Assembly (NCBI GenBank): GCA_046596195.1 | Contig: JBKJNA010000027.1 | Location: forward strand, 913-64,912 | Length of the DNA: 64,000 nt | Source of the DNA: Acidimicrobiales bacterium | Lineage (GTDB): Bacteria; Actinomycetota; Acidimicrobiia; Acidimicrobiales; GCA-2861595 | Direction of reading: 5' to 3' | Part shown: in pieces, positions 44,175 through 55,917 of the stretch | Numbering within the stretch: the first letter of the stretch is position 1 | How the letters are laid out: each line of letters begins with the position of its first letter | Notes under the pieces: generated by a model | What the model was told of the DNA's origin: nothing | The model's database searches: none | What the model saw: the letters and a program-made list of their open reading frames with translations, nothing else | Position numbers and translations under genes: made by a program

Positions 44175-45227
44175 TCAGGGCTTTCGGGTGGTCGTGGTGG
44201 TTACCGGTCTCGTGGTGGGGACGGTCGTGACGGCCGGACCGGTGGTGGTGGTCACCGGTCTGGTGGTGGGGGCGGTGGTGACGGCCGGACGGGTGGTCGT
44301 GGTCACCGGGCTGGTCGTGGGGGTGGTGGAGCCGGGAGGGCGGCTCGTCGTGGCGCCCGGGACAGTCGAGGCGACCGGCGCCGTGGTGACCGGCGTCGGC
44401 GGGTCGGCGCATGCCGGCAACGCCAGCTGGAACTGTTCGGCGCCATTGACGACGAGCCGCAAGGCCTGCACCCCGACGCCCTGGCAGGTCAGCTCCCAGC
44501 GGGCCCGTCCGGTGGCATCGGTCACCGTGGGGTTCGCCAGACCGACGCTCCAGCCCGACCCGCCCGCCAGCTCCACGGTGGCGCCCGCCATGGCCACACC
44601 GTTCACCACCCCGCCCGGGTCGACCGAGCGGTTGCTCAGCTGCAGGACCAGGTTGCTGGTCCCGCCCACGACCGGCGGGTTGGGCGCAATCGCCGGCTGC
44701 GGCGTGGTGCCGAAGTTGCGCTCCAGCTTCAGATCCACCGAATAGGTCTCCGTCGCTCCGACGAAGAAGAAGGCGGGGACGGCGATGGCGATGTCAGGCA
44801 CCCGCCACGCCCGGACCCGGTAGCCGCCGCCGAGCACGTTCTGGGCCGACCAGCTGCCGTCGGGGGCCGAGGCCACGTCGATGCCGGCGACCGACCTGCC
44901 CACCAACCGCTCCACCCGGATCGTTGCGCCGTCCACCGGAGTGCCGTCCGGCCCGACCACCGTGCCCTTGATGGTGCCCTTGCCCGGCCCCACCACCACG
45001 GTGGTCATGGTGGCCCGCCCGGCGGGCACGGCCGGCAGGGCCACCCCGGTGAAGTCCGGCGGGGAGGTGGTGGACGGCCGGGCCTGCGTGCTGGGCGGCG
45101 GCGGCAGCGGGTCGAGAGCGACGTCGCCGCCCGAGCACGCGGCCAGGAGGGCAGCGACCGCCAGTGCGGCCACCACCGACCGCAGCGTGCCACGGGCGCC
45201 GACGGCGGCGCCCGCCGGGCCGAGCAC
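44175..45227 (-). CDS. Lipoprotein with a carboxypeptidase-regulatory-like domain and a Thr/Pro-rich repeat tail
   Basis: Lipobox ALLAACSGG. GTIKGTVVGPDGTPVDGATIRVE is CarboxypepD_reg-like. The C-terminus is (PVTTTTxPAVTTxPTTR)n. Start GTG 45227 lies within the long ORF 44175..46931. Confidence 0.65.
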   Translation of the reverse strand: MLGPAGAAVGARGTLRSVVAALAVAALLAACSGGDVALDPLPPPPSTQARPSTTSPPDFTGVALPAVPAGRATMTTVVVGPGKGTIKGTVVGPDGTPVDGATIRVERLVGRSVAGIDVASAPDGSWSAQNVLGGGYRVRAWRVPDIAIAVPAFFFVGATETYSVDLKLERNFGTTPQPAIAPNPPVVGGTSNLVLQLSNRSVDPGGVVNGVAMAGATVELAGGSGWSVGLANPTVTDATGRARWELTCQGVGVQALRLVVNGAEQFQLALPACADPPTPVTTAPVASTVPGATTSRPPGSTTPTTSPVTTTTRPAVTTAPTTRPVTTTTGPAVTTVPTTRPVTTTTTRKP

Positions 45228-45295
45228 CCACGGACGACGCCGGGCGCGCTCAGGCCGCCGTGGGGGAACCGGATGGGGCGCAACCAGATGGTGCA

Positions 45296-46800: not shown

Positions 46801-46847
46801 TCCCGAGTAAATAGCCACCGGATTCCGGTGGCCCTATTTACTCGGGA
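46801..46847. terminator. Palindromic hairpin element, copy 4 (2-nt bulge)
   Basis: TCCCGAGTAAATAGCCACCGG-att-CCGGTGGC(cc)CTATTTACTCGGGA. The trpE TAA stop (46838-46840) lies in the right arm. Confidence 0.7.
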
Positions 46848-48364
46848 GTGCGGAGGTTGGCGGCGCGGGCGGCGGTCATGCGGCGGGCGGCGGGGACGGC
46901 GGCGAGGAGGGCGGCCGCCTTGTTGCAGCACTCCAGGTCCTCCATGGCGGGGTCGCTGTCGGCCACGATGCCGGCGCCCGCCTGGACGCTGGCCTTCCCG
47001 GCCGGGGTGACGAGCATGGTGCGGATGGCGATGGCGGTGTCGAGGTTGCCGGAGAAGTCGACGTAGCCCACCACGCCGGCGTACGGGCCGCGCTTGGTGG
47101 GCTCCAGCTCGTCGATGATCTCCATGGCCTTGACCTTGGGGGCGCCCGACACCGTGCCCGCCGGCAGGGTGGCCCGCAGCACGTCGATCGGGCCGAGACC
47201 TGGAGCCAGCCGGCCCGACACCTGCGAGCTGAGGTGCATGACGTGGCTGTAGCGCTCGAGGGTGAGCAGTTCGTCGACCTGCTCGGTGCCGAAGCGCACC
47301 ACCCGCCCCACGTCGTTGCGGGCCAGGTCGACCAGCATCACGTGCTCGGCCAGCTCCTTGGGGTGCTCGCGCAGCTCGCCGGCCAGCCGGCGGTCCTCCT
47401 CGTCGGTGCGGCCCCGGCGGCGGGTGCCGGCGATGGGCCGCGACACGACCCGGTCGCCCAGCAGCTGCACCATGGGCTCGGGTGACGAGCCCACCACGGT
47501 GACGGCCGGATGGCGCAGGAAGTACATGTACGGCGACGGGTTCACCTGGCGCAGCGCCCGGTACACGTCGAAGGGGTCGGCGCCGAGGTCGAGGTCGAAC
47601 CGCATCGACAGCACGACCTGGAAGATGTCGCCGTCGAGGATGCGCTCCTTGGCCGCCGCCACCGCCCGGGCGTAGTCCGCAGCGCTCACCGTGCGGGTGA
47701 CGTCGGGCGGCGGCTCGTCGCGCTCGGGCGGTTCCACCACCGGCTCGTCGAGGGGACGGGCGCCGTCGGCCGCCAGCCGGTCGAGGCGGGCCTCGGCGTC
47801 GTCGTAGAGGGCGTCGATGTCGTCAGCCGACGCGTCCGGGGGGACGAAGGCGTTGGCGATCAGGGTGACCCGCTGGCGCCAGTGGTCGTAGGCGGCGATC
47901 TCCCCCACCACCGACAGCACGGCGTCGGGATGGCCCAGGTCGTCGGGCGGGACGTCGGGCAGGCGCTCGACCTCGCGCGCCACGTCGTAGCCCAGGTAGC
48001 CGACCACACCGCCGTGCAGCGGTGGCAGGTCGGGCACCGGCGGCGAGTGGTAGGCGGCCAGCAGCCCCTCGAGAGCGGCCAGCACGCCCCGGTCGAGGGC
48101 CACGCCGGCGGGCACGCCGTTGTCGGCCTCTATGCGCCCGCCCCGGGCCACCAGGGTGGTCGACGGGTTGCGGCCGACGAACGACCACCGGCTCCAGCGC
48201 TCGCCGTGCTCCACCGACTCGAACAGGAACCCGGCGCCGTCGCCCACCACCCGTAGGAACCCGGCCACTGGCGTGGTGAGGTCGCCCAGGATCTCCCGCC
48301 ACACCGGCACCACGGGGGCGCTACGGGTTAGGGCGCGGAAGTCGTCCCTACTGGGGCGGGGCAC
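46838..48364 (-). CDS. trpE: Anthranilate synthase component I
   Basis: Contains [18 protein letters not shown]-type [19 protein letters not shown], and [10 protein letters not shown]. Confidence 0.95.
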
Positions 48365-48797
48365 CGAACGGCCGGTAGAAGCAGGTGAACTCGCCGGTGT
48401 GGCAGGCGCCCTTGCCTACCTGGTCGACGACGAACAGCAGGGCGTCGCCGTCACAGTCGTAGGACGCCTCGACTACGTTCTGGACGTCGCCCGACGTGTC
48501 GCCTTTGGCCCACCGCTCCTGACGCGACCGGCTCCAGTACACCATCCGCCCCGTCTCCAGGGTCTCCCGCAGCGTGTCGGCGTTCATCCACGCCAGCATC
48601 AGCACCTTCCCTGTGGCCCGGTCCTGGGCGATGGCGGGCACGAGGCCAGAGGCGTCGTACCTCACCTGATCGAGGCCAGCAATCGGGTCGGGCGTCACGA
48701 CAGCCCCGGGGGAAGCAGGGCGCCCGGCCACCGCACGCCGCCGAAGGCGGCCCCGATGGCTGGGCGCAACCGCCGGCGAAGCCGGCGGCGAGGACAA
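48348..48797 (-). CDS. hisI: Phosphoribosyl-AMP cyclohydrolase
   Basis: Contains GLVPAIAQD...VLMLAWMN...YWSRSR...WAKGDTSG...DCDGDALL...GACHTGE. The start is uncertain because the N-terminal 30 aa look non-native. Confidence 0.85.
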
Positions 48798-48807
48798 ACG
48801 AGCGGAG

Positions 48808-48830
48808 GCAGACCGGCTCCGCCGGTCTGC
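48808..48830 (-). terminator. Hairpin downstream of the GroES-like gene
   Basis: GCAGACCGG-ctccg-CCGGTCTGC, followed on the minus strand by CTCCGCTCGTTTGTCC. Confidence 0.45.
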
Positions 48831-48876
48831 TGGAGCACGGACAACTCGCTGAGCAAGCTCCGCTTGCGAAGCGAAA

Positions 48877-49203
48877 TCACAGGTACAGCCCCGTGGCGTC
48901 CTCGTTGCGGTCGGAGGCGACGGCGTGCACGTCGCGCTCGCGCAGGATCAGGTACTCCTCGCCCTGGACCTCCACCTCGAAGCGGTCCTCGGGGTTGAAC
49001 AGCACCCAGTCGCCCGTGCGCACGCTGCGCACATTCGGCCCCACCGCCACCACCTCGGCCCACGCCAGGCGCTTGCCGACCTGGGCGGTGGCGGGGATGA
49101 GGATCCCCGACCGGGACCGGCGCTCACCCTCGGCTGCCGGGATCTGCACCAGCAGCCGGTCGGCCAGCATGGTGATGGGCTGCTTGTGGTCGCGCTCGGG
49201 CAC
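48877..49203 (-). CDS. Divergent GroES/Cpn10-like co-chaperonin family protein
   Basis: LADRLLVQ..(mobile-loop region)..SGILIP....G.VVAVGP......GDWVLF......[17 protein letters not shown] follows the Cpn10 pattern. It stands alone with no groEL nearby. Confidence 0.6.
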
Positions 49204-49213
49204 CCCCCACGGT

Positions 49214-49318
49214 AATGGACGGCAGCGGGTGGGGATGGGGTCCCCACCTCGCGGAGGAGGCCGGGGTTGGGGCCCCGGCCGGGCAGATTGAAATGGACGG
49301 CAGCGGGTGGGGATGGGG
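49214..49318. repeat. 27-bp direct repeat x2 (AATGGACGGCAGCGGGTGGGGATGGGG)
   Basis: Exact copies at 49214-49240 and 49292-49318 in the GroES-like / MerR divergent region. The first copy is followed by TCCCCACC, which forms GGTGGGGA-tgggg-TCCCCACC. Confidence 0.9.
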
Positions 49319-49457
49319 CCACTGGTCGTATCGTTACTTCAACTGATGGCACTATACAACGAGGCATGGTCGTGGTAGCGTGGGCCACGTGGCCCCGACC
49401 CCCGCTGCACCCACCGTCCCCCCCGACGGCGAGGTTCGCGGGGCGGCGGGGCCCACG

Positions 49458-50180
49458 ATGACGATCGACGAGCTGGCCCGCCGGGCCGGGTGCACCACCC
49501 GCAACGTCCGGAACCACCAGACGGCTGGCCTCCTGCCCCCGCCGGTGATCGACGGACGGGTGGGTCGCTACGACGAGGGCCATCTGGCCCGCCTGCGCCT
49601 CATCGCCCAGCTCCAGGAGCAGGGTTACTCGCTGGCCGGGATCGCGTCGCTGCTGGAGGCCTGGCAGAAGGGTCACAGCCTGGCCGAGGTACTCGGCTTC
49701 GAGCAGGCCCTCACCGCTCCGTGGACCGACGAGGAGCCCGAGGTCGTCTCCCCCGGCTACCTGTTCGAGCTGTTCCCGGAGAGCGCCACCCGCCCGGATC
49801 TCGTCCTGCGGGCCGTGGAGCTCGGCCTCTTCGAGGCGGACGGGCCCGACGTGCGGGTGCTCAGCCCCCGGCTCGTGAAGGCGGGCGCCGAGTTGGTGGC
49901 GGTGGGGGTGCCCCTGGCCGCCACACTGGCGGAGCTGGGCGAGCTGCGCCGGGACCTCGACCGGGTGGCCACCCGGCTCGTGCACCTGTTCGAGGAGCAC
50001 GTCTGGAAGCCCTTCGCCGACGCCGGCATGCCGGCCGACCAACTTCCCCACGTCACCGACGCCCTCCGGCGCATGCGCCCGCTGGCCGCCGCCACCGTCC
50101 AGGCGGTGCTGGCCCGGGCCATGGAGAGCCGCACCGCCGCGTCCACCACCATGGCGGCGGTCCGGGAAGGCATGCGATGA
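49458..50180 (+). CDS. MerR family transcriptional regulator
   Basis: Contains MTIDELARRAGCTTRNVRNHQTAGLLPPP...GRYDEGHLARLRLIAQLQEQGYSLAGI. In-frame ATG at 49458. Confidence 0.8.
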   Translation: MTIDELARRAGCTTRNVRNHQTAGLLPPPVIDGRVGRYDEGHLARLRLIAQLQEQGYSLAGIASLLEAWQKGHSLAEVLGFEQALTAPWTDEEPEVVSPGYLFELFPESATRPDLVLRAVELGLFEADGPDVRVLSPRLVKAGAELVAVGVPLAATLAELGELRRDLDRVATRLVHLFEEHVWKPFADAGMPADQLPHVTDALRRMRPLAAATVQAVLARAMESRTAASTTMAAVREGMR

Positions 50181-50253
50181 CCACCGCAGGAGCAGCAGCA
50201 CCGACAGCACGGCACCGCACGGCCCCGTCGACGCGCAAGGAAGGAAGCACGCC

Positions 50254-52080
50254 ATGATCGCCTTCGCCGGATGGGGCACCGACTGGCCGTTCGTGGCCGC
50301 GCCCTTCGTCTTCTATTTCTTCACCGTCTTCTGGCTGCTCTGCATGGGCGACCACGAGGGCGAGACCAACCCGATCCGCATGTTCTTCCGGCGCATCTCC
50401 ACCGCCATGGAGGACGTCACCGGGTACCCCGGCTGGGCCATGGCCGGCGCCCTGAGCGGCCTGCTGGTTCTGGCCGTGGCCGCTCTCGGCCTCTACTGGG
50501 ACGTGGCGTACCACATCGATTTCGGCCGGGACAACCAGCTGATGACGCCCAGCCACACGATGATCCTGCTGGGCCTCGGCGGCATGGTCTACGCAGCGGT
50601 GATCGCGGTGATCTTCGCCACCAACGACCGCACGCAGGTGGGCTTCGGGTTCGCCGGCATGCGCATCCCGTGGTCGGCCCTCATGCTCGCCGTCCTCGGC
50701 TTCGGCGGCGTGGCCGCCTTCCCACTCGACGAGCTTTGGCACCGGGCCTACGGCGTCGACGTCACCCTGTGGAGCCCCACCCACCTGCAGCTGGTCGCCG
50801 GTGGCGGGCTCGGCCCCATCGCCGTCCTGCTCATGCTCCTCGAAGGCCGCTCCCAGGCGAGCCCTCGGGCCCTCGGCCGCATCATCGAGGCCACCACCGG
50901 TGGCGCCGTCCTCGTGGGCCTGTCGACCTTCCAGGGCGAGTTCGACTTCGGTGTCCCCCAGTTCCAGGCCCTGTACCTGCCCGTCCTGTTCGCCGTCGTC
51001 ATGGGCTTCGGCCTGGTGCTCGTGCGCATGGCCCTCGGCCAGGGCGGCGCCATCACGTCGGTGATCGCGTTCCTCGTCCTGCGCATCTCCCTTGCCCTCC
51101 TGGTGGGCGGCGCCCTCAACCACACCACGCCCCGCTTCCCGCTCTACCTGGTGGGCGCCGTCTGCGTGGAGGTGGTGGCGTACGTGCTCGGCACCGACAA
51201 GACGCTGCGGTTCGCCCTGGTGGCAGGGGCGGCGGCGGGCACAATCGGCCTGGCCGGCGAGATGGCGTTCGTCGACGTCTCCGGGTGGTTCGACGTCGAC
51301 CCGACCGCCATGCTCCTGCCGGCGCTCGTCATCTGCCTGGTGGCGGCGACGGCGGCGGCCGTCCTGGGCGCCGGCCTGGGCAGGGCGTGGCGGCCGTCGG
51401 GGGACGAGTCCTCCACGCCGATGCCGCTCGCCGCTCTCGGCGTCGCGGGCCTGGCCGTCATCGTGGCGCTGGCGCTGCCGCTGCCCCGCAACGTCGGCCA
51501 GGTCGACGCCGTCATCCGGCTGGAGCCGGCCGGCGACCTGGCCAAGGTGGCGGTCGACGTCACGCCGGCCGATGCGGCCGACAACGCCACCGCCTTCGGG
51601 GTCATGTCCTGGCAGGGCGGCGGCCGGGTGTGGGCCGAGCTCGAGAAGGCCGGCCCGGGACACTGGGTCACCACCAAGGCGGTGCCCATCGCCGGGTCGT
51701 GGAAGTCGATGGTGAGCCTCCAGCGGGCCGACGAGGTGATGGCGGCGCCGATCTACCTGCCCGCCGACGCCGAGATCGGCGCCTCCGCCGTGCCCGCCCT
51801 GCCCGAGCGGTCCGCCCCGTTCGTGCGCAACACGGAGATCCTCCTGCGGGAGGCCAAGGACGGGCCCGGCTGGCCGGCGCTCCTCGCCTACGCCGGCGTG
51901 GCCCTCGTGGCGGCCGTGTGGATCGGCCTGTTCGCCTTCACCGGCCGGCGCCTGGCCGGCGCCGAGCCGCCCCCGCCAGCGCCGCCGGCCGACAGGGGCA
52001 GCGACGCCGGGACCGCCTTTGTGCCTGGCGGCAGGCTCGAGCCCGTCGGCGGCCACACCCGCTCCTGGGCCAACTGGTAG
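50254..52080 (+). CDS. Large polytopic membrane protein of unknown function with conserved His motifs and a C-terminal extracytoplasmic domain
   Basis: 608 aa with about 12 TM helices. Motifs are WDVAYHIDFGRD..TPSH and PLDELWHRAYGVDVTLWSPTH. AAGGAAGG lies upstream of the ATG. Confidence 0.6.
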   Translation: MIAFAGWGTDWPFVAAPFVFYFFTVFWLLCMGDHEGETNPIRMFFRRISTAMEDVTGYPGWAMAGALSGLLVLAVAALGLYWDVAYHIDFGRDNQLMTPSHTMILLGLGGMVYAAVIAVIFATNDRTQVGFGFAGMRIPWSALMLAVLGFGGVAAFPLDELWHRAYGVDVTLWSPTHLQLVAGGGLGPIAVLLMLLEGRSQASPRALGRIIEATTGGAVLVGLSTFQGEFDFGVPQFQALYLPVLFAVVMGFGLVLVRMALGQGGAITSVIAFLVLRISLALLVGGALNHTTPRFPLYLVGAVCVEVVAYVLGTDKTLRFALVAGAAAGTIGLAGEMAFVDVSGWFDVDPTAMLLPALVICLVAATAAAVLGAGLGRAWRPSGDESSTPMPLAALGVAGLAVIVALALPLPRNVGQVDAVIRLEPAGDLAKVAVDVTPADAADNATAFGVMSWQGGGRVWAELEKAGPGHWVTTKAVPIAGSWKSMVSLQRADEVMAAPIYLPADAEIGASAVPALPERSAPFVRNTEILLREAKDGPGWPALLAYAGVALVAAVWIGLFAFTGRRLAGAEPPPPAPPADRGSDAGTAFVPGGRLEPVGGHTRSWANW

Positions 52081-52106
52081 CGAACGAGGGAGTCCCCCCG
52101 GCATCT

Positions 52107-52874
52107 CTAAACGGGGCGAACCGACACGCCGGCGGCGGCCAGATGGGCCTTCGCCTGGGCGACCGTGAGGTCGCCGAAGTGGAACACCGAGGCGGCGAGC
52201 AGCGCATCGGCGCCGCCCTCCACCGCCCCCGCCACCAGGTGGTCGAGCGTGCCCACGCCGCCGCTGGCGATCACCGGGATGTTGCAGGCGTCGACGACCG
52301 ACCGCAGCAGCTCGAGGTCGAATCCGTCGCGGGTGCCGTCGCGGTCCATCGAGGTGAGCAGGATCTCCCCCGCCCCGAGCCGCTCGCACTCGCCCGCCCA
52401 CGCCACCGCGTCGAGCCCCGTGGGCGTGCGCCCGCCGTGGGTGTGCACCTCGAAGCCCGCCGTAGCGTCCGTGCGCCGTCGGGCGTCGATGGCGACGACC
52501 ACGCACTGCGCCCCGAACTCGGTGGACAGGTCGGCCACGAGCTCTGGACGGGCCACGGCGGCGGTGTTCACTCCGACCTTGTCCGCCCCGGCCCGCAGGA
52601 GCGCCCGGGCATCGTCGACGGTGCGCACGCCGCCGCCCACGGTGAGGGGGATGAACACCCGCTCGGCCGTCCTCCACACCACGTCGATCATGGTGGACCG
52701 GGCGCCCGACGACGCCGTGATGTCGAGGAACACGATCTCGTCGGCTCCCGCCTCGTCGTAGCGGGCGGCCAGTTCGGCCGGGTCACCGGCGTCGCGTAGG
52801 TCGACGAAGCGCACGCCCTTCACCACCCGGCCGGCGTCGACGTCGAGGCAGGGGATGATCCTCACGGCTCGCAC
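52107..52874 (-). CDS. hisF: Imidazole glycerol phosphate synthase cyclase subunit
   Basis: Contains [15 protein letters not shown]...GDP and GADKV..NTAA. Confidence 0.95.
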
Positions 52875-53593
52875 GCCAGCACCGCCTCCCGCACGCTGAA
52901 CACGCCCTCGTGGATTGCGGTACCGACGATGGCGCGGGCGAGCGGCCGCCCACCGGCCTCCACCAGGGCAAGGGCCCGAAGGTCGTCGAGCGTGCCCACG
53001 CCACCCGACGCCACCACAGGGTGACGGGTCGCCGCCAGCACGCCGGCGAGGCCATCGAGATCGGGCCCCCCGAGCATCCCGTCGCGAGAGATGTCGGTTA
53101 CCACCACGGCTCCCAGCTCGGCGTCCTCGATCTCGTTCAGGACGTCGGTCAGGGTGCGGCCCGACCCCTCCGTCCAGCCCCGCACCGCAACCTCACCGTG
53201 ACGCGCATCGAGACCGACGGCCACCCGGTGGGGGTGGCGCTGGGCCACGCGCCGCAACAAGCCGGGGTCCTCCAGCGCGGCGGTCCCGAGCACGATCCGG
53301 CTCACGCCGGCCCCGAGGAGCGCCTCAGCCGAGAACTCGTCCCGGATGCCGCCCCCCGCCTGTACCGGGATCGCCACGGCCGCGGCGATGGCGGCGACGA
53401 CGGCCCGGTTCTCGGGCCGACCGGTCCGGGCCGCGTCGAGGTCGACCACGTGGATCCACGACGCCCCGTCCGCCTCGAACTCCTTGGCCACCGCCACCGG
53501 ATCGCCCCCGTACACCTTCTCCCGCGCGTAGTCCCCCTGCACGAGCCGCACGCACGCCCCACCCCGGATGTCGATCGCCGGATAGAGCTCCAT
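52862..53593 (-). CDS. hisA: 1-(5-phosphoribosyl)-5-[(5-phosphoribosylamino)methylideneamino]imidazole-4-carboxamide isomerase (HisA/PriA family)
   Basis: Contains [22 protein letters not shown] and VVDLDAA. The ATG at 53593 overlaps the hisH stop as ATGA. Confidence 0.9.
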
Positions 53594-54195
53594 CAGGAAC
53601 ACGCCTTCGCGAAGTTGGCCAGCACACGCGCACCGACGGCTCCGGACTTCTCCGGGTGGAACTGCGTCGCCCACAGGGGACCGCGTTCGACAGCGGCGAC
53701 CACAGTGCCCCCGTAGTCGCAGGTGGCGACAACGTCAGCAGTCGGAGCAGGCGCGAATGAATGCACGAAGTACACCCAGGGCTCGGGCCCGAGGCCATCG
53801 AGTAGCGCACTCGCGGGGCGGGTGGGAACGAGCACGTTCCACTGCATCTGCGGCCGCTTGACGCCGTCCGGCAACCGGACGACGGTCGCATCGATCACAC
53901 CCAGCCCGTCGATCCCGGGGCTCTCCTCGGACGACGCATACAGCATCTGCATGCCGATGCAGATGCCGAGGAAGGGCGTTCCCGCAGCGATGGCGTCGAA
54001 CGCAACCTTGTCGAGCCCGGTCGACCGGAGCGCTTCCATGCACCGCCCGAACGCCCCGACCCCAGGAAGCACAACTCCCGCCGCACCCGCAGCCGAGGCC
54101 GGATCGCTGACGAGGACGGCGTCCGCCCCGGCCTTCTCCAACGCCTTCTGTGCCGACCGGAGGTTCCCGATCCCGTAGTCGAGGACAGCGATCAC
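53593..54195 (-). CDS. hisH: Imidazole glycerol phosphate synthase glutamine amidotransferase subunit
   Basis: Contains IAVLDYGIGNLRSAQKAL, the nucleophile motif GICIGMQML and HSF. In-frame GTG at 54195. Confidence 0.9.
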   Translation of the reverse strand: MIAVLDYGIGNLRSAQKALEKAGADAVLVSDPASAAGAAGVVLPGVGAFGRCMEALRSTGLDKVAFDAIAAGTPFLGICIGMQMLYASSEESPGIDGLGVIDATVVRLPDGVKRPQMQWNVLVPTRPASALLDGLGPEPWVYFVHSFAPAPTADVVATCDYGGTVVAAVERGPLWATQFHPEKSGAVGARVLANFAKACS

Positions 54196-54259
54196 TGGCG
54201 ATCCCGCCTCGCGGTGTCGGGAGGCATCCCACCGACCCGAACGGCGCCCGCCGATCGGA

Positions 54260-54859
54260 TCACAACGAGCCTTTCGTCGAGGGCACACCGACACCGTCGA
54301 CCCGGATCGCATCGCGCAAGGCCCGGGCCACGCCCTTGAACGAGGCCTCCAGGATGTGGTGCGTATTGCGACCACTCCGCAACCGGATGTGCAACGTGAT
54401 GCCAGCCGACGTGGCGAACGACTGGAAGAAATGCTCCCCCATCTGCGGGTCGAACGGCGGCGTCCCCAGCGGCAACGAATCGGGCGGGCATTCCACCTCG
54501 TAGACGATGAACGGACGTCCGGACAGGTCCAGGGCGACCTCGACCAGGGCCTCGTCCAGGGGCAGGAGGATCGACCCGAAGCGCCGGATCCCCTCCTTGT
54601 CCCCCAAGGCTTCGCGCACAGCCTCGCCCACCACGATGGCCACGTCCTCGACCGTGTGGTGGGTATCCACGTGCAGGTCGCCCCGGGCGACGACCTTGAG
54701 GTCGATACCGCCGTGGCGCCCGAGCTGGGAGACCATGTGGTCGAAGAAGGGCAGGCCGGTATCGACCTCGGTGGCGCCGGTGCCGTCGAGGTCGACCCGG
54801 ACCTCGATCTCGGTCTCCTTGGTCGACCGGGTGCGGGTGGCGGTACGGGGCGACGTCAC
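54260..54859 (-). CDS. hisB: Imidazoleglycerol-phosphate dehydratase
   Basis: Contains TKETEIEV..DLDG, GLPFFDHM, DTHHTVEDV and HHILEA. The GTG at 54859 overlaps the hisC stop as GTGA. Confidence 0.9.
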   Translation of the reverse strand: MTSPRTATRTRSTKETEIEVRVDLDGTGATEVDTGLPFFDHMVSQLGRHGGIDLKVVARGDLHVDTHHTVEDVAIVVGEAVREALGDKEGIRRFGSILLPLDEALVEVALDLSGRPFIVYEVECPPDSLPLGTPPFDPQMGEHFFQSFATSAGITLHIRLRSGRNTHHILEASFKGVARALRDAIRVDGVGVPSTKGSL

Positions 54860-55917
54860 AGGACCTCCGCTACGGCGGCGAGGAACGTGTCGTCCTCGGC
54901 GGGGGTGCCGACCGTGACCCGGAGGCAGCCGTCGAGGCCGGGCCACGAGCTGCAGTTGCGCACCAGCACCGACCGGTCGAGCAGCCCCTGCCACACCTCG
55001 GCCGACGGCCGCGAGCGGGGCCGGAACAGGATGAAGTTGGCGTCGGACGGCCACGTCTCCAGGTCGAGATCGGCCAGGGCGGCGAAAAGGCGGTCGCGCT
55101 CGGCCGCCACCGCCCGCACCCGCGCGTCCATCTCGGCCCGGTAGCGCAGGGCGAGGAGGCCGGCCGCCTGCTTCACCGCGTCGAGGTGGTACGGCAGGGC
55201 CCGCGCCTCCATCTCGGCCACCACCGACGCCGGGCCGATGACGTAGCCGAGGCGGGCGGCCGCCATCGACCACGTCTTCGAGTAGGTGCGCACCACGGCC
55301 AGGCCGGCGTCGTCGTCCACCAGCTCGACGGCCGACCACGGCGCGAACTGGCCGTACGCCTCGTCCACCACCACCAGGCCCGGGGCGAGGTCGACCACGT
55401 CGGTGACCACGGCCGGAGGGTCGGCCCGGCCGGTGGGGTTGTTCGGCGAGCACAGGAAGGTGACGGCCGGGTCGGCCTCGGCCACGACCCGTTTCACCTC
55501 GCCGATGTCGAGGGTGAAGTCGGGGGCCCGGTCACCGGTGGTCACGCCCGTGCCGGTGAGGCGGGCGATGTGGGAGTGCAGCGCGTAGGTGGGCTCGAAC
55601 ACGGCCGCCGTCCGCCCCGGCCCGCCGTAGGTGAGCAGCAGGACCTGGAGCACCTCGTTGGAGCCGTTGGCGGCGAAGACCTGCTCGGGTCGCACCCCGT
55701 GCAGCTCGGCCAGCCCGGCCCGCAGGGCGGTGGCCGAGCGGTCTGGATAGCGGTTGAACGCGATGGCGGCGACCGCTGCGGCCAGCTCGTCGACCCAGGC
55801 CTGTGGTGGCGGGTAAGGCGACTCGTTGGTGTTGAGGCGCACGGCCACGTCGACCTGGGGCGAGTGGTAGCCCGCGCCGAGGCCCTGGTCGGGGCGCGGC
55901 GGGATCAGCGCTGCCAT
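54856..55917 (-). CDS. hisC: Histidinol-phosphate aminotransferase
   Basis: Contains LNTNESPYPPP, a class-II aminotransferase core, and the PLP lysine in YSKTWSMA. Confidence 0.9.
   Translation of the reverse strand: MAALIPPRPDQGLGAGYHSPQVDVAVRLNTNESPYPPPQAWVDELAAAVAAIAFNRYPDRSATALRAGLAELHGVRPEQVFAANGSNEVLQVLLLTYGGPGRTAAVFEPTYALHSHIARLTGTGVTTGDRAPDFTLDIGEVKRVVAEADPAVTFLCSPNNPTGRADPPAVVTDVVDLAPGLVVVDEAYGQFAPWSAVELVDDDAGLAVVRTYSKTWSMAAARLGYVIGPASVVAEMEARALPYHLDAVKQAAGLLALRYRAEMDARVRAVAAERDRLFAALADLDLETWPSDANFILFRPRSRPSAEVWQGLLDRSVLVRNCSSWPGLDGCLRVTVGTPAEDDTFLAAVAEVL

What the first reader, a model, noticed from the sequence alone, without database searches (positions are those of the whole stretch)
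48877..52080. Three-gene module (divergent GroES-like, MerR, 608-aa His-motif membrane protein) inserted between hisF and hisI
In M. tuberculosis hisF and hisI are adjacent. Here they are separated by 3.2 kb carrying three genes. The first is a stand-alone, divergent Cpn10-like protein with no groEL and an unusual tail, ...[13 protein letters not shown]. The second is a MerR regulator. The third is a roughly 12-TM protein with paired His motifs (WDVAYHIDFGRD..TPSH and PLDELWHRAYGVDVTLWSPTH) and a C-terminal extracytoplasmic domain. I do not recognise the membrane protein family. The His/Asp/Trp motifs at predicted membrane-surface positions and the MerR partner suggest metal or redox handling, but that is speculation. 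The combination with a GroES-fold protein is not a module I know.
Basis: inference. Interest (0 to 1): 0.55.

Follow-up and report, generated by a model that had tools for sequence, protein, structure and literature searches.

The report
MerR-controlled membrane protein with PmoC-like copper sites
The three genes between hisF and hisI are two unrelated units: a GroES-like gene that belongs to the histidine operon, and a self-regulated regulator-plus-membrane-protein pair whose unannotated membrane protein carries metal-binding motifs resembling the copper sites of methane/ammonia monooxygenase subunit C.

Summary
hisF and hisI are separated by about 3.2 kb carrying a Cpn10-like gene, a MerR gene and a 608-aa membrane protein with no Pfam or NCBIfam match.

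The "three-gene module" does not hold.
- **Cpn10-like gene:** it is a resident of the Acidimicrobiales his-trp operon, always just upstream of hisI. It is there in five contigs that lack the other two genes.
- **MerR plus membrane protein:** this is the real unit. The pair is adjacent in 69 of 80 reference loci, 240 species-level genomes carry the membrane protein, and the his context is seen only in the five closest relatives. A conserved 7-6-7 palindromic operator precedes the pair (window 49333-49352).

The membrane protein has 13 predicted TM helices and an outward-facing beta-sandwich domain. Two outward-facing hairpins carry D-x3-H-x13-H triads that align with the CuC and CuD ligand triads of PmoC/AmoC (hhalign 51-94 % probability, controls far lower). 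Distant plasmid-borne cousins in cultured actinobacteria lie in copper islands.

I read it as a copper-site membrane protein, probably redox-active, whose function is untested.

Separately, all 120 Cpn10-like relatives end in GLYL, a proteasome-docking-type tail.

The parts
48877..49203 (-). Cpn10/GroES-like gene (108 aa). It keeps the mobile-loop GILIP, lacks the roof hairpin and has an invariant C-terminal TGLYL. It belongs to the his-trp operon, not to the MerR cassette.
   Evidence: Pfam PF00166 E 1.5e-18. Alignment with E. coli and M. tuberculosis GroES. Context in five other contigs. 120 of 120 relatives end in GLYL. Foldseek top hit is Mtb Cpn10, 1p3h.
49333..49352 (.). Predicted MerR operator: 7-6-7 imperfect palindrome GTTACTTCAACTGATGGCAC, followed directly by a -10-like TATACA (49353-49358).
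   Evidence: Motif GT[TG][AC]CAT-N6-ATG[TG][AC]AC scores >=12/14 in 52 of 67 regulatory regions of the pair, against 2 of 2792 background 200-bp windows. It is the only site scoring >=12 in the 64-kb window.
49380..50180 (+). MerR-family regulator. The ORF runs from the GTG at 49380; the conserved protein starts at the ATG at 49458 (MTIDELARR...). N-terminal wHTH plus a conserved C-terminal helical domain of about 170 aa with no Cys.
   Evidence: PF13411 E 3.7e-18. Nearest solved structure is 2dg6, a putative regulator of S. coelicolor. Conservation over 62 orthologues.
50254..52080 (+). 608-aa polytopic membrane protein of an unannotated actinobacterial family: 13 TM helices, an outward-facing beta-sandwich and a disordered cytoplasmic tail.
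50497..50556 (+). Motif 1, WDVAYHIDFGRDNQLMTPSH: D83/H87/R92/H101, aligned to the PmoC CuC ligands Asp156/His160/(Arg165)/His173.
   Evidence: hhalign. Controls. Ligand identities from PMC12576850 and PMC7584546. Translation.
50719..50784 (+). Motif 2, FPLDELWHRAYGVDVTLWSPTH: D159/H163/H177, with the same x3/x13 spacing as the PmoC CuD ligands Asn227/His231/His245.
   Evidence: In-register alignment in the sub-profile comparison. Weak alignment to the CuC motif, which suggests an internal repeat. Translation.
51481..51843 (+). Extracytoplasmic beta-sandwich domain (residues about 410-530) with conserved WQGGG, WK and PAD. It has no conserved His or Cys.
   Evidence: DSSP of the model. Conservation. 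Translation.
52107..52874 (-). hisF, upstream flank of the variable slot.
   Evidence: TIGR00735 E 9e-109.
48348..48797 (-). hisI (PRA-CH). The likely true start is the GTG near 48697, followed by trpE.
   Evidence: NF000768 E 1.2e-46. Sequence.

Best explanation
The 3.2-kb stretch holds two independent units.

(1) The Cpn10-like gene is a conserved member of the Acidimicrobiales his-trp operon (hisDCBHAF-cpn10L-hisI-trpE-ygfZ). The hisF/cpn10L junction is a variable slot. In this clade the slot has taken up unit (2) on the opposite strand.

(2) The MerR-family regulator and the 608-aa membrane protein form a self-contained cassette. The regulator binds a 7-6-7 palindrome at the cassette's promoter and switches on merR and the membrane gene in response to a non-thiolate, probably organic or stress, signal.

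The membrane protein presents two adjacent Asp/His/His sites at the outer face of the membrane (D83/H87/H101 and D159/H163/H177, with R92). They sit on two helix-loop-helix hairpins that resemble the CuC/CuD core of PmoC/AmoC.

I infer that it binds copper there. I judge it more likely a copper-dependent oxidoreductase acting on a membrane-soluble substrate (about 40 %) than a copper relay or importer in the manner of CopD (about 30 %).

Shown: gene order, the pairing, the operator motif, conservation, predicted topology, and the motif-level similarity to PmoC.
Inferred: copper binding, catalysis, and the regulator's signal.
For: **Pairing**
- A MerR homologue lies directly upstream of the membrane gene in 69 of 80 loci: 34 co-directional and 35 divergent.
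- Six of the other eleven loci are cut off at the gene's start.
- his genes and the Cpn10-like gene are present only in the five closest loci.
- No other neighbour is conserved.

**Operator**
- Conserved palindrome.

**Cpn10-like gene**
- Same his-trp context in five contigs without the cassette. In two of them (L086, L087) hisF is followed directly by the Cpn10-like gene.

**Similarity to PmoC**
- hhalign of family profile A1 against 24 AmoC/PmoC sequences: probability 91.7 %, E 7.8e-7, on exactly the CuC motif.
- The broad profile A4 (25-50 % identity) gives the same register at E 7e-4.
- The best of 32 reversed or shuffled controls scores 25.5, against 57 and 36 for the real comparisons.
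- A sub-profile of residues 62-200 aligns over 107-123 columns, with the second triad in register.
- An AmoC HMM gives weak hits at a consistent position in more than 25 members.

**Conservation and topology**
- The motif residues are the most conserved positions across 70 diverse members and 5 plasmid cousins.
- Positive-inside counts place the motifs outside the cell.

**Copper context of distant cousins**
- CopC directly upstream in M. vanbaalenii.
- CopY, CsoR-like regulators, YHS, P-type ATPases, cupredoxin, multicopper oxidase, TlpA and CcdA in five other plasmids.
- A true CuMMO operon is itself followed by CopC-CopD.

**Fusions**
- C-terminal short-chain dehydrogenase fusions occur in three cluster representatives below 50 % identity to each other, one of them PGAP-annotated in a Frankiaceae MAG.
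Against: - The similarity to PmoC is at motif level. There is no Pfam AmoC hit, phmmer against PDB sequences finds nothing, and Foldseek against PDB gives no hit at E<=1e-3.
- The probability falls to 26-51 % with the broad profile.
- There are no PmoA or PmoB counterparts.
- Asp/His/His sites also bind Zn or Fe.
- The Acidimicrobiales cassette itself has no copper genes nearby, and its regulator lacks metal ligands.
- The copper context comes from cousins at 23-35 % identity.
- Those islands also carry cell-wall hydrolases, so guilt by association is not unique to copper.
- The dehydrogenase domain would sit on the cytoplasmic side, opposite the sites.
Confidence: 0.45

Rival explanations
1. 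Copper relay or uptake protein, analogous to CopD. The outward-facing Asp/His/His sites take copper from periplasmic carriers such as CopC. They then pass it across the membrane or to extracytoplasmic cuproproteins, with no catalysis.
For: In M. vanbaalenii JOB5 the homologue sits directly after copC, where copD normally is. CtaG-like, TlpA and heme-copper oxidase III genes are nearby. Other cousins lie among P-type ATPases, CopY/CsoR-type regulators, YHS and CcdA/TlpA genes, which are trafficking rather than enzyme genes. Conserved intramembrane charges (R277, E306) could line a pathway.
Against: No conserved Met, Cys or His lies inside the membrane to carry Cu(I) across. Conservation is concentrated in four outer loops and the beta-sandwich, which is more typical of an active site. 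There is no Pfam CopD similarity. The dehydrogenase fusions are odd for a carrier. CopC also accompanies real CuMMO enzymes.
Confidence: 0.28
2. One reading: Cpn10-like, MerR and the membrane protein form one functional three-gene module for metal or redox handling, inserted into the his operon.
For: All three lie together between hisF and hisI in the window and in four or five close relatives, L001-L005. The operator lies in the intergenic region shared with the Cpn10-like gene.
Against: The Cpn10-like gene is next to hisI in five contigs that have no MerR or membrane gene. The MerR-membrane pair occurs without it in 64 other loci, in unrelated contexts. The Cpn10-like gene is on the his strand and the pair is on the other strand.
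Confidence: 0.04
3. The membrane protein is not a copper protein. The Asp/His/Arg outer-face cluster is a Zn/Fe hydrolase or transferase site, or a non-metal site, acting on envelope lipids or cell wall. The resemblance to PmoC is convergent.
For: The architecture (polytopic core, conserved acidic and His residues in outer loops, C-terminal extracytoplasmic domain) recalls envelope-modifying enzymes. Peptidoglycan hydrolases, deacetylases and Mur ligase genes recur near the plasmid cousins. The PmoC CuC site is known to accept zinc in crystals (my knowledge). The Acidimicrobiales contexts show no copper genes.
Against: No Pfam or Foldseek similarity to any GT-C, acyltransferase or hydrolase family. 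Both PmoC triads, the Arg and the RD/TPSH flanks are matched in the same order and spacing, well above controls. Six of seven plasmid contexts carry explicit copper or heavy-metal genes.
Confidence: 0.23

Closest known systems
PmoC/AmoC subunit of copper membrane monooxygenases (Pfam PF04896)
   Same: Two consecutive helix-loop-helix hairpins on the outer side of the membrane carry D-x3-H-x4-RD-...-TPSH and [N/D]-E-x-x-H-x13-H. This gives the same ligand order, Arg partner and spacing as CuC (Asp156/His160/His173) and CuD (Asn227/His231/His245). D83 to D159 is 76 residues, against 71 from Asp156 to Asn227. Profile-profile match is above controls.
   Different: It is not detected by the Pfam AmoC model. 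There is a one-residue insertion before TPSH, and Asp replaces Asn in the second triad. The motif core sits inside a 13-TM, 608-aa single chain with a beta-sandwich. There are no PmoA/PmoB partners or similarity. It is paired with a MerR regulator and found in Actinomycetota that are not known methane or ammonia oxidisers.
CopC-CopD copper uptake/resistance pair (CopD, PF05425)
   Same: It is a polytopic membrane protein encoded directly after copC in one cousin and within copper islands in others. Its presumed metal sites face outward.
   Different: No sequence similarity to CopD. The window's own locus has no copC or other copper gene.
MerR-family regulators with a non-metal C-terminal domain (S. 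coelicolor putative regulator, PDB 2dg6; Rv1828-type)
   Same: N-terminal MerR wHTH, and a palindromic operator between or next to the promoter hexamers of the regulated gene. The nearest solved relative is 2dg6, E 2.7e-6, extending into the C-domain. A faint Rv1828_C hit appears on the Frankiaceae orthologue.
   Different: None of the Cys/His ligands of MerR, CueR, ZntR or SoxR are present. The effector is unknown. The promoter spacer length is not the clear 19-20 bp of classical MerR promoters.
GroES/Cpn10, phage T4 Gp31 and the chloroplast Cpn11/20/23 cap on ClpP (PDB 7ekq)
   Same: Cpn10 fold (Foldseek 1p3h, E 3e-6). The mobile loop with its hydrophobic tripeptide is kept (GILIP). Like Gp31 it lacks the roof hairpin. 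7ekq, where a co-chaperonin ring caps a 7-fold protease, is among the structural hits.
   Different: 36-44 % identity to GroES, below all NCBIfam GroES cut-offs. No groEL is adjacent. It is embedded in the his operon, has an N-terminal extension and carries an invariant C-terminal GLYL tail.
Bacterial proteasome activators Mpa/ARC and Bpa (C-terminal GQYL; HbYX-type motif)
   Same: An extreme C-terminal G-x-Y-L with a penultimate Tyr, on a flexible tail of a presumably ring-forming protein. Bpa itself was discovered by searching for this tail (PMC8223512).
   Different: GLYL rather than GQYL, on a GroES fold that would form a 7-fold ring. No binding data exist. The presence of a 20S proteasome in this genome was not checked.

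Membership tests
AmoC/PmoC (PF04896) | Match to the family HMM above the Pfam gathering score | tested here: not met
   No Pfam hit even at E<=10. A home-built AmoC HMM gives only 6-11 bits, confined to the CuC motif.
AmoC/PmoC (PF04896) | CuC ligand triad Asp-x3-His-x12-His with the following Arg-Asp | tested here: met
   D83-x3-H87-x4-R92-D93-...-H101, with x13 (one inserted residue). Near-invariant in 70 diverse members. Aligned by hhalign.
AmoC/PmoC (PF04896) | CuD triad Asn-x3-His-x13-His on the next hairpin | tested here: inconclusive
   D159-x3-H163-x13-H177 has the same spacing, with Asp for Asn. It is in register only in the extended sub-profile alignment, probability 51 %.
AmoC/PmoC (PF04896) | Partner subunits PmoA and PmoB encoded alongside | tested here: not met
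   None among the neighbours. No similarity of any part of the protein to AmoA or AmoB.
AmoC/PmoC (PF04896) | Same three-dimensional helix packing around the sites | not testable with these tools
CopD (PF05425) | Family HMM match, and a gene next to copC | tested here: not met
   No Pfam hit. copC adjacency is seen only in a cousin at 35 % identity, not in the window or in the 80 loci.
MerR family | N-terminal MerR-type winged HTH | tested here: met
   PF13411 E 3.7e-18, residues 27-94.
MerR family | Palindromic operator at the promoter of the regulated gene | tested here: met
   A conserved 7-6-7 palindrome in 52-63 of 67 regulatory regions, and rare in background. Binding itself was not tested.
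Metal-sensing MerR subgroup (MerR/CueR/ZntR/CadR/SoxR) | Conserved Cys (or His) ligands in the C-terminal effector region | tested here: not met
   No column with Cys at >=30 %. The only invariant His is in the HTH. All NCBIfam metal-regulator models score far below cut-off.
GroES/Cpn10 co-chaperonin | Cpn10 domain and fold | tested here: met
   PF00166, 67 bits against a cut-off of 21. Foldseek top hits are all Cpn10.
GroES/Cpn10 co-chaperonin | Scores as a GroES equivalog; roof beta-hairpin; gene linked to groEL | tested here: not met
   Best NCBIfam score is 48.6 bits against a cut-off of 96. There is a 10-residue deletion of the roof hairpin. No groEL was found in the window or in nine other contexts.
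GroES/Cpn10 co-chaperonin | Mobile loop with the hydrophobic tripeptide that binds GroEL | tested here: met
   SGILIP is invariant or near-invariant (115 of 120 GILIP) and predicted disordered. Binding was not tested.
HbYX/GQYL proteasome-docking proteins | Hydrophobic-Tyr-X at the extreme C-terminus of a ring-forming protein | tested here: met
   ...TGLYL at the C-terminus, with GLYL in 120 of 120 relatives while the linker varies. The tail is disordered in the model. Ring formation is inferred from the GroES fold only.
HbYX/GQYL proteasome-docking proteins | Co-occurrence with, and binding to, a 20S proteasome | not tested
   No prcB was found in the about 1 Mb of held DNA. The literature places the pupylation machinery in Acidimicrobiales (PMC3511204).

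The most novel reading that the evidence does not exclude
The 608-aa protein is a single-chain, stand-alone relative of the PmoC catalytic core. It would be a membrane-embedded copper oxygenase or oxidase that uses a CuC/CuD-like pair of sites, without PmoA or PmoB, to oxidise a lipid-soluble substrate. In some lineages it would be coupled to a fused dehydrogenase. It is widespread in Actinomycetota and switched on by a ligand-sensing MerR regulator. That would give a much simpler system for studying the disputed CuC/CuD chemistry of methane and ammonia monooxygenases. A second, independent novel reading: the his-operon Cpn10-like heptamer uses its invariant GLYL tails to cap a 7-fold protease, either the 20S proteasome or ClpP.
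Probability: 0.2. Interest if true: 0.85.

Novelty: new variant of a known kind. Interest (0 to 1): 0.6.

Why it matters
Which metal site of particulate methane and ammonia monooxygenase does the chemistry is a long-standing question. The CuC/CuD pair in subunit C is the current favourite, but it is hard to study in the three-subunit, trimeric enzyme.

This family is unannotated and abundant: 240 reference species and more than 2000 clusters at 50 % identity. It keeps both ligand triads in one polypeptide, and its cousins sit in copper islands of culturable mycobacteria and streptomycetes. That offers a tractable handle, and at the least a new player in actinobacterial copper biology.

The work also corrects the gene-context picture. 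It defines a MerR operator that can be tested directly. It flags a GroES paralogue fixed in a histidine operon with a proteasome-docking-type tail.

Tried and rejected
**Searches that found nothing**
- Pfam, NCBIfam and PADLOC on the membrane protein, its beta-sandwich and the MerR C-domain: no hits. The one exception is a PADLOC match to the MerR HTH only.
- Foldseek of the model against PDB: nothing at E<=1e-3, best TM-score 0.1-0.19.
- PDB sequence searches with the profile and with residues 60-200: nothing.
- Rfam on 48300-52300: nothing.
- The promoter/terminator scan gave only a weak hairpin at the Cpn10-like stop codon.

**Ideas considered and rejected**
- A fused PmoC+PmoA+PmoB "single-chain pMMO": rejected, no similarity to AmoA or AmoB.
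- Bis-heme cytochrome b, suggested by the two His pairs 14 residues apart: rejected, because each pair spans a hydrophilic loop and both lie at the same membrane face.
- A GT-C-type glycosyltransferase or other envelope enzyme: no supporting similarity.
- A defence system: no PADLOC support.

**Methods that did not work**
- A generic palindrome search in the regulatory regions picked up GC-rich chance repeats and was replaced by a motif-based score.
- Looking for further conserved neighbours of the pair found none beyond clade-level synteny with housekeeping genes.
- A search for groEL, canonical groES or prcB in the about 1 Mb of held DNA found nothing, which is uninformative.


Full report
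**What is there.** On the minus strand the window carries hisC, hisB, hisH, hisA and hisF (52107-52874), then hisI (48348-48797) and trpE (family assignments). Three ORFs lie between hisF and hisI.
- A 108-aa Cpn10-like gene on the his strand (48877-49203). Pfam Cpn10 gives E 1.5e-18, but the best NCBIfam GroES score is 48.6 bits against a cut-off of 96.
- A MerR-family gene on the plus strand (49380-50180, HTH at residues 27-94).
- A 608-aa gene on the plus strand (50254-52080) with no hit in Pfam, NCBIfam or PADLOC, even at E<=10.

GC content is uniform at about 0.70-0.77 across the region.

**The Cpn10-like gene belongs to the his operon, not to a module.** Its relatives are very numerous and highly conserved (top 120 clusters at 73-97 % identity). 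Those that carry a source name are all from Acidimicrobiales/Acidimicrobiaceae MAGs. In five independent long contigs the order is hisD-C-B-H-A-F, then 0-2 variable genes, then cpn10-like, hisI, trpE and ygfZ.
- In L086 and L087, hisF is followed directly by the Cpn10-like gene.
- In L088 a BsuPI gene intervenes.
- In L081 a PLP enzyme intervenes, and in L082 a PLP enzyme plus a 231-aa ORF.
- None of these contigs has the MerR or membrane gene.

The hisF/cpn10-like junction is thus a variable slot, and the Cpn10-like gene is a fixed his-operon gene in this order.

**The MerR gene and the membrane gene are the real unit.** A scan of one genome per species found relatives of the membrane protein in 240 genomes. 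Most are Acidimicrobiales/Acidimicrobiia, with MAGs labelled Pseudonocardiaceae, Solirubrobacterales, Egibacteraceae and Dormibacterales as well. In the 80 loci kept:
- A MerR homologue lies directly upstream in 69, co-directional in 34 and divergent in 35.
- Six of the remaining eleven loci are truncated at the gene's start.
- The his genes and the Cpn10-like gene are present only in the five closest relatives, L001-L005.
- Clustering of all other neighbours found nothing shared beyond clade-level synteny with housekeeping genes: DUF58, transglutaminase, DinB, GT2, PIG-L, inositol monophosphatase.

In a Frankiaceae MAG, MerR is divergent from a two-gene operon made of a 370-aa unknown gene and the membrane gene.

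**A conserved operator.** The regulatory regions share a 7-6-7 palindrome, GT[TG][AC]CAT-N6-ATG[TG][AC]AC, for example GTTACATCAGATGATGTAAC. In the clearest cases it lies between a TTGACT-like -35 and a TANNNT -10.
- It scores >=12/14 in 52 of 67 regulatory regions and >=11 in 63.
- In 2792 random 200-bp windows of the same loci it scores >=12 in 2 and >=11 in 50.
- The motif was defined on these same regions, so the contrast is somewhat inflated, but it is very large.
- In the window the site is GTTACTTCAACTGATGGCAC at 49333-49352, immediately followed by TATACA. It is the only site scoring >=12 in the 64 kb.

This is the classic MerR arrangement and points to autoregulation of merR plus the membrane gene. 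Protein binding was not tested.

**The regulator is not a metal sensor of the known type.** Across 62 orthologues the C-terminal domain of about 170 aa is well conserved. It has no column with Cys at >=30 %, and the only invariant His is in the HTH. All NCBIfam models for CueR, MerR, ZntR, CadR and SoxR score far below cut-off. The nearest solved structure is a functionally uncharacterised S. coelicolor regulator, 2dg6.

**Anatomy of the membrane protein.**
- *Family size.* It has more than 816 relatives in the word-indexed search; every one that carries a source name is called "hypothetical protein", and none has a Pfam domain. An exhaustive profile search found 2191 cluster representatives at E<=1e-3.
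- *Fold.* The AlphaFold model is confident (pLDDT 85, pTM 0.86). It shows 13 TM helices, a beta-sandwich at residues about 418-522 between TM12 and TM13, and a disordered tail.
- *Topology.* Averaged over 70 members, loops on one side carry about 17.5 Lys+Arg and the short loops on the other about 2.2. This puts the two His motifs, the E229/PQFQ loop, the NHTxPRFPLY loop and the beta-sandwich outside the cell.
- *Conservation.* Across members at 25-50 % identity, the near-invariant residues include D83, H87, R92, D93, H101, D159, W162, H163, D169, W173, P175, H177, E229 and P235-Q236, plus a few others.
- *Geometry.* Each motif is the end of one TM helix, an 8-residue loop and the start of the next helix. 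The two motifs are weakly similar to each other.

**Resemblance to PmoC/AmoC.**
- *The lead.* From memory I recognised D-x3-H-x4-RD-x-x-x-TPSH as the CuC-site motif of subunit C of the copper membrane monooxygenases, and I tested the idea.
- *Ligands from the literature.* CuC is ligated by Asp156/His160/His173 and CuD by Asn227/His231/His245, with Arg165 in the hydrogen-bond network (PMC12576850). These correspond to Asp136/His140/His153 in N. europaea AmoC (PMC7584546).
- *Reference set.* I retrieved real AmoC/PmoC sequences and aligned 24 of them. Their invariant core is EQDxxWHQxxxRDTxFTxSH ... NEWGHxF....E.F..PLHWGF.
- *Whole-profile comparison.* The 40-sequence family profile against AmoC gives probability 91.7 %, E 7.8e-7, score 57, on exactly this motif. 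The 70-sequence diverse profile gives the same register at probability 26 %, E 7e-4, score 36.
- *Controls.* A reversed AmoC alignment and 30 block-shuffled versions never exceeded score 25.5, E 0.022. AmoA and AmoB profiles gave E 0.35-0.8.
- *Sub-profile comparison.* Residues 62-200 against AmoC 112-250 align over 107-123 columns at probability 94 % and 51 %. In the latter, D159/H163/H177 fall on the CuD ligands.
- *HMM check.* An unfiltered AmoC HMM gives weak hits at the same position in more than 25 members, against one spurious hit in reversed sequences.
- *Reading.* This is a real, motif-level similarity that covers both ligand triads in the same order, spacing and membrane side. Whether it reflects distant homology or convergence is open. 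The Pfam AmoC model does not see the protein, and Foldseek against PDB gave no significant match. That test is weak for all-helical membrane proteins, and the more sensitive libraries could not be run.

**Copper context of cultured cousins.** tblastn against plasmids found homologues at 23-35 % identity that keep every motif residue. None of them has a significant Pfam match either; the only hit, Acyl_transf_3 on the S. mirabilis protein, falls below its gathering score. Their neighbourhoods, as annotated in the records, are as follows.

| Plasmid host | Neighbouring genes |
|---|---|
| M. vanbaalenii JOB5 | copC directly upstream; cytochrome oxidase assembly protein, TlpA, heme-copper oxidase III, CbtA |
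| M. chubuense NBB4 | TlpA, CcdA, CopY-family repressor, TetR |
| S. mirabilis P16B-1 | cupredoxin protein, DUF5134, HMA protein, P-type ATPase |
| M. aubagnense | YHS protein, TetR, CopY/M56 pair |
| Leifsonia shinshuensis | four-helix-bundle copper-binding protein, metal-sensitive regulator, two P-type ATPases, YHS |
| Streptomyces sp. F2 | multicopper oxidase, CcsB/ResB, DUF5134, cupredoxin |

A genuine CuMMO operon fetched as a control is itself followed by CopC and CopD. Copper is therefore the best-supported metal. The evidence is by association, at a distance of 23-35 % identity, and cell-wall hydrolase genes recur in the same islands.

**Fusions.** Three cluster representatives below 50 % identity to each other carry a C-terminal, hence cytoplasmic, short-chain dehydrogenase domain. 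One is a PGAP-called 843-aa protein of a Frankiaceae MAG, found on three contigs. An FAD/NAD-domain fusion sits on a frameshift-ridden contig and is not trusted.

**How it most likely works.**
- *Shown:* an autonomous regulator-target pair with a conserved operator, and a membrane protein with two outward-facing Asp/His/His sites that match the PmoC copper sites.
- *Inferred:* the sites bind copper, and the regulator activates the operon on binding a non-metal effector.

I lean towards a copper-dependent oxidoreductase acting on a membrane-soluble substrate (about 40 %). Three things favour it: conservation is concentrated in four outer loops plus the beta-sandwich rather than in a transmembrane pathway; no intramembrane Met, Cys or His is conserved; and dehydrogenase fusions exist. 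A CopD-like copper relay is the main rival (about 28 %). A non-copper envelope enzyme remains possible (about 23 %).

**The Cpn10-like protein in its own right.**
- It is 36-44 % identical to E. coli and M. tuberculosis GroES.
- It keeps the mobile loop (SGILIP) and lacks the 10-residue roof hairpin, as phage T4 Gp31 does.
- It has an N-terminal extension and a 12-residue C-terminal extension whose linker varies while the last residues do not. All 120 cluster representatives end in GLYL, 119 of them in TGLYL.
- The loop and tail are disordered in the model. Cpn10 structures are the top Foldseek hits, and they include the chloroplast co-chaperonin cap on ClpP, 7ekq.
- G-x-Y-L with a penultimate Tyr is the docking motif of the bacterial proteasome activators Mpa and Bpa (GQYL), and Bpa was found through exactly this tail (PMC8223512).
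- Acidimicrobiales are reported to carry the pupylation machinery (PMC3511204).

A heptameric GroES-like ring with seven HbYX-type tails would match the 7-fold alpha ring. This is a lead only. I could not check whether these genomes also hold a canonical groES, groEL or prcAB (one search was uninformative).

**Verdict.** The copper assignment and any catalysis remain to be shown.

Noticed in passing
window 48877-48912 (C-terminus of the Cpn10-like gene): The extreme C-terminus GLYL is kept in 120 of 120 relatives while the preceding linker varies. It resembles the GQYL/HbYX proteasome-docking tail of Mpa and Bpa, here on a presumably 7-fold GroES-like ring that lacks the roof hairpin.
   Followed up: partly
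window 49214-49240 and 49292-49318: A perfect 27-nt direct repeat (AATGGACGGCAGCGGGTGGGGATGGGG), 78 nt apart, in the intergenic region between the Cpn10-like gene and merR. It occurs nowhere else in the window or in any fetched locus, including the 94 %-identical relative L001. It is probably a recent local duplication.
   Followed up: partly
L081-L082, L086-L088 and window 46838-55917: Acidimicrobiales have a his-trp supraoperon, hisDCBHAF-cpn10L-hisI-trpE-ygfZ, which in L081 and L082 runs on through one more gene to trpC-trpF-trpB. The hisF/cpn10L junction is a hot spot for inserted genes: a PLP enzyme, BsuPI, a 231-aa ORF, or the MerR cassette.
   Followed up: partly
L093-L096 (plasmid cousins), just before the beta-sandwich domain: The plasmid subfamily has a conserved A-x-A-H-D-P-G-Q-G after the preceding TM helix. 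It looks like a signal-peptidase site that would expose an N-terminal His, as in the histidine-brace copper sites of PmoB, CopC and LPMOs. The window's subfamily lacks it.
   Followed up: no
L083/L084 6001-8532 (Frankiaceae MAG) and proteins P0250, P0277: Family members fused at the cytoplasmic C-terminus to a short-chain dehydrogenase. In L083 a 370-aa gene with no Pfam match lies between the divergent merR and the fusion gene.
   Followed up: partly
L094 6573-7445 and L098 10312-11175: DUF5134 membrane proteins and small cupredoxin-domain proteins recur next to the Streptomyces cousins. They are possible partners of the family in copper islands.
   Followed up: no
window 48698-48876: In this window the Cpn10-like stop codon and the probable hisI start (GTG near 48697) are about 180 nt apart, with a weak hairpin at the stop. 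In L081/L082 the two genes overlap. No Rfam family matches the gap.
   Followed up: partly
window 44175-45290 (-): The gene after ygfZ encodes a probable secreted protein that ends in a long Thr/Pro-rich repeat (...TTRPVTTTT...). Its counterparts in L081 and L088 carry a faint to weak CarboxypepD_reg hit.
   Followed up: no
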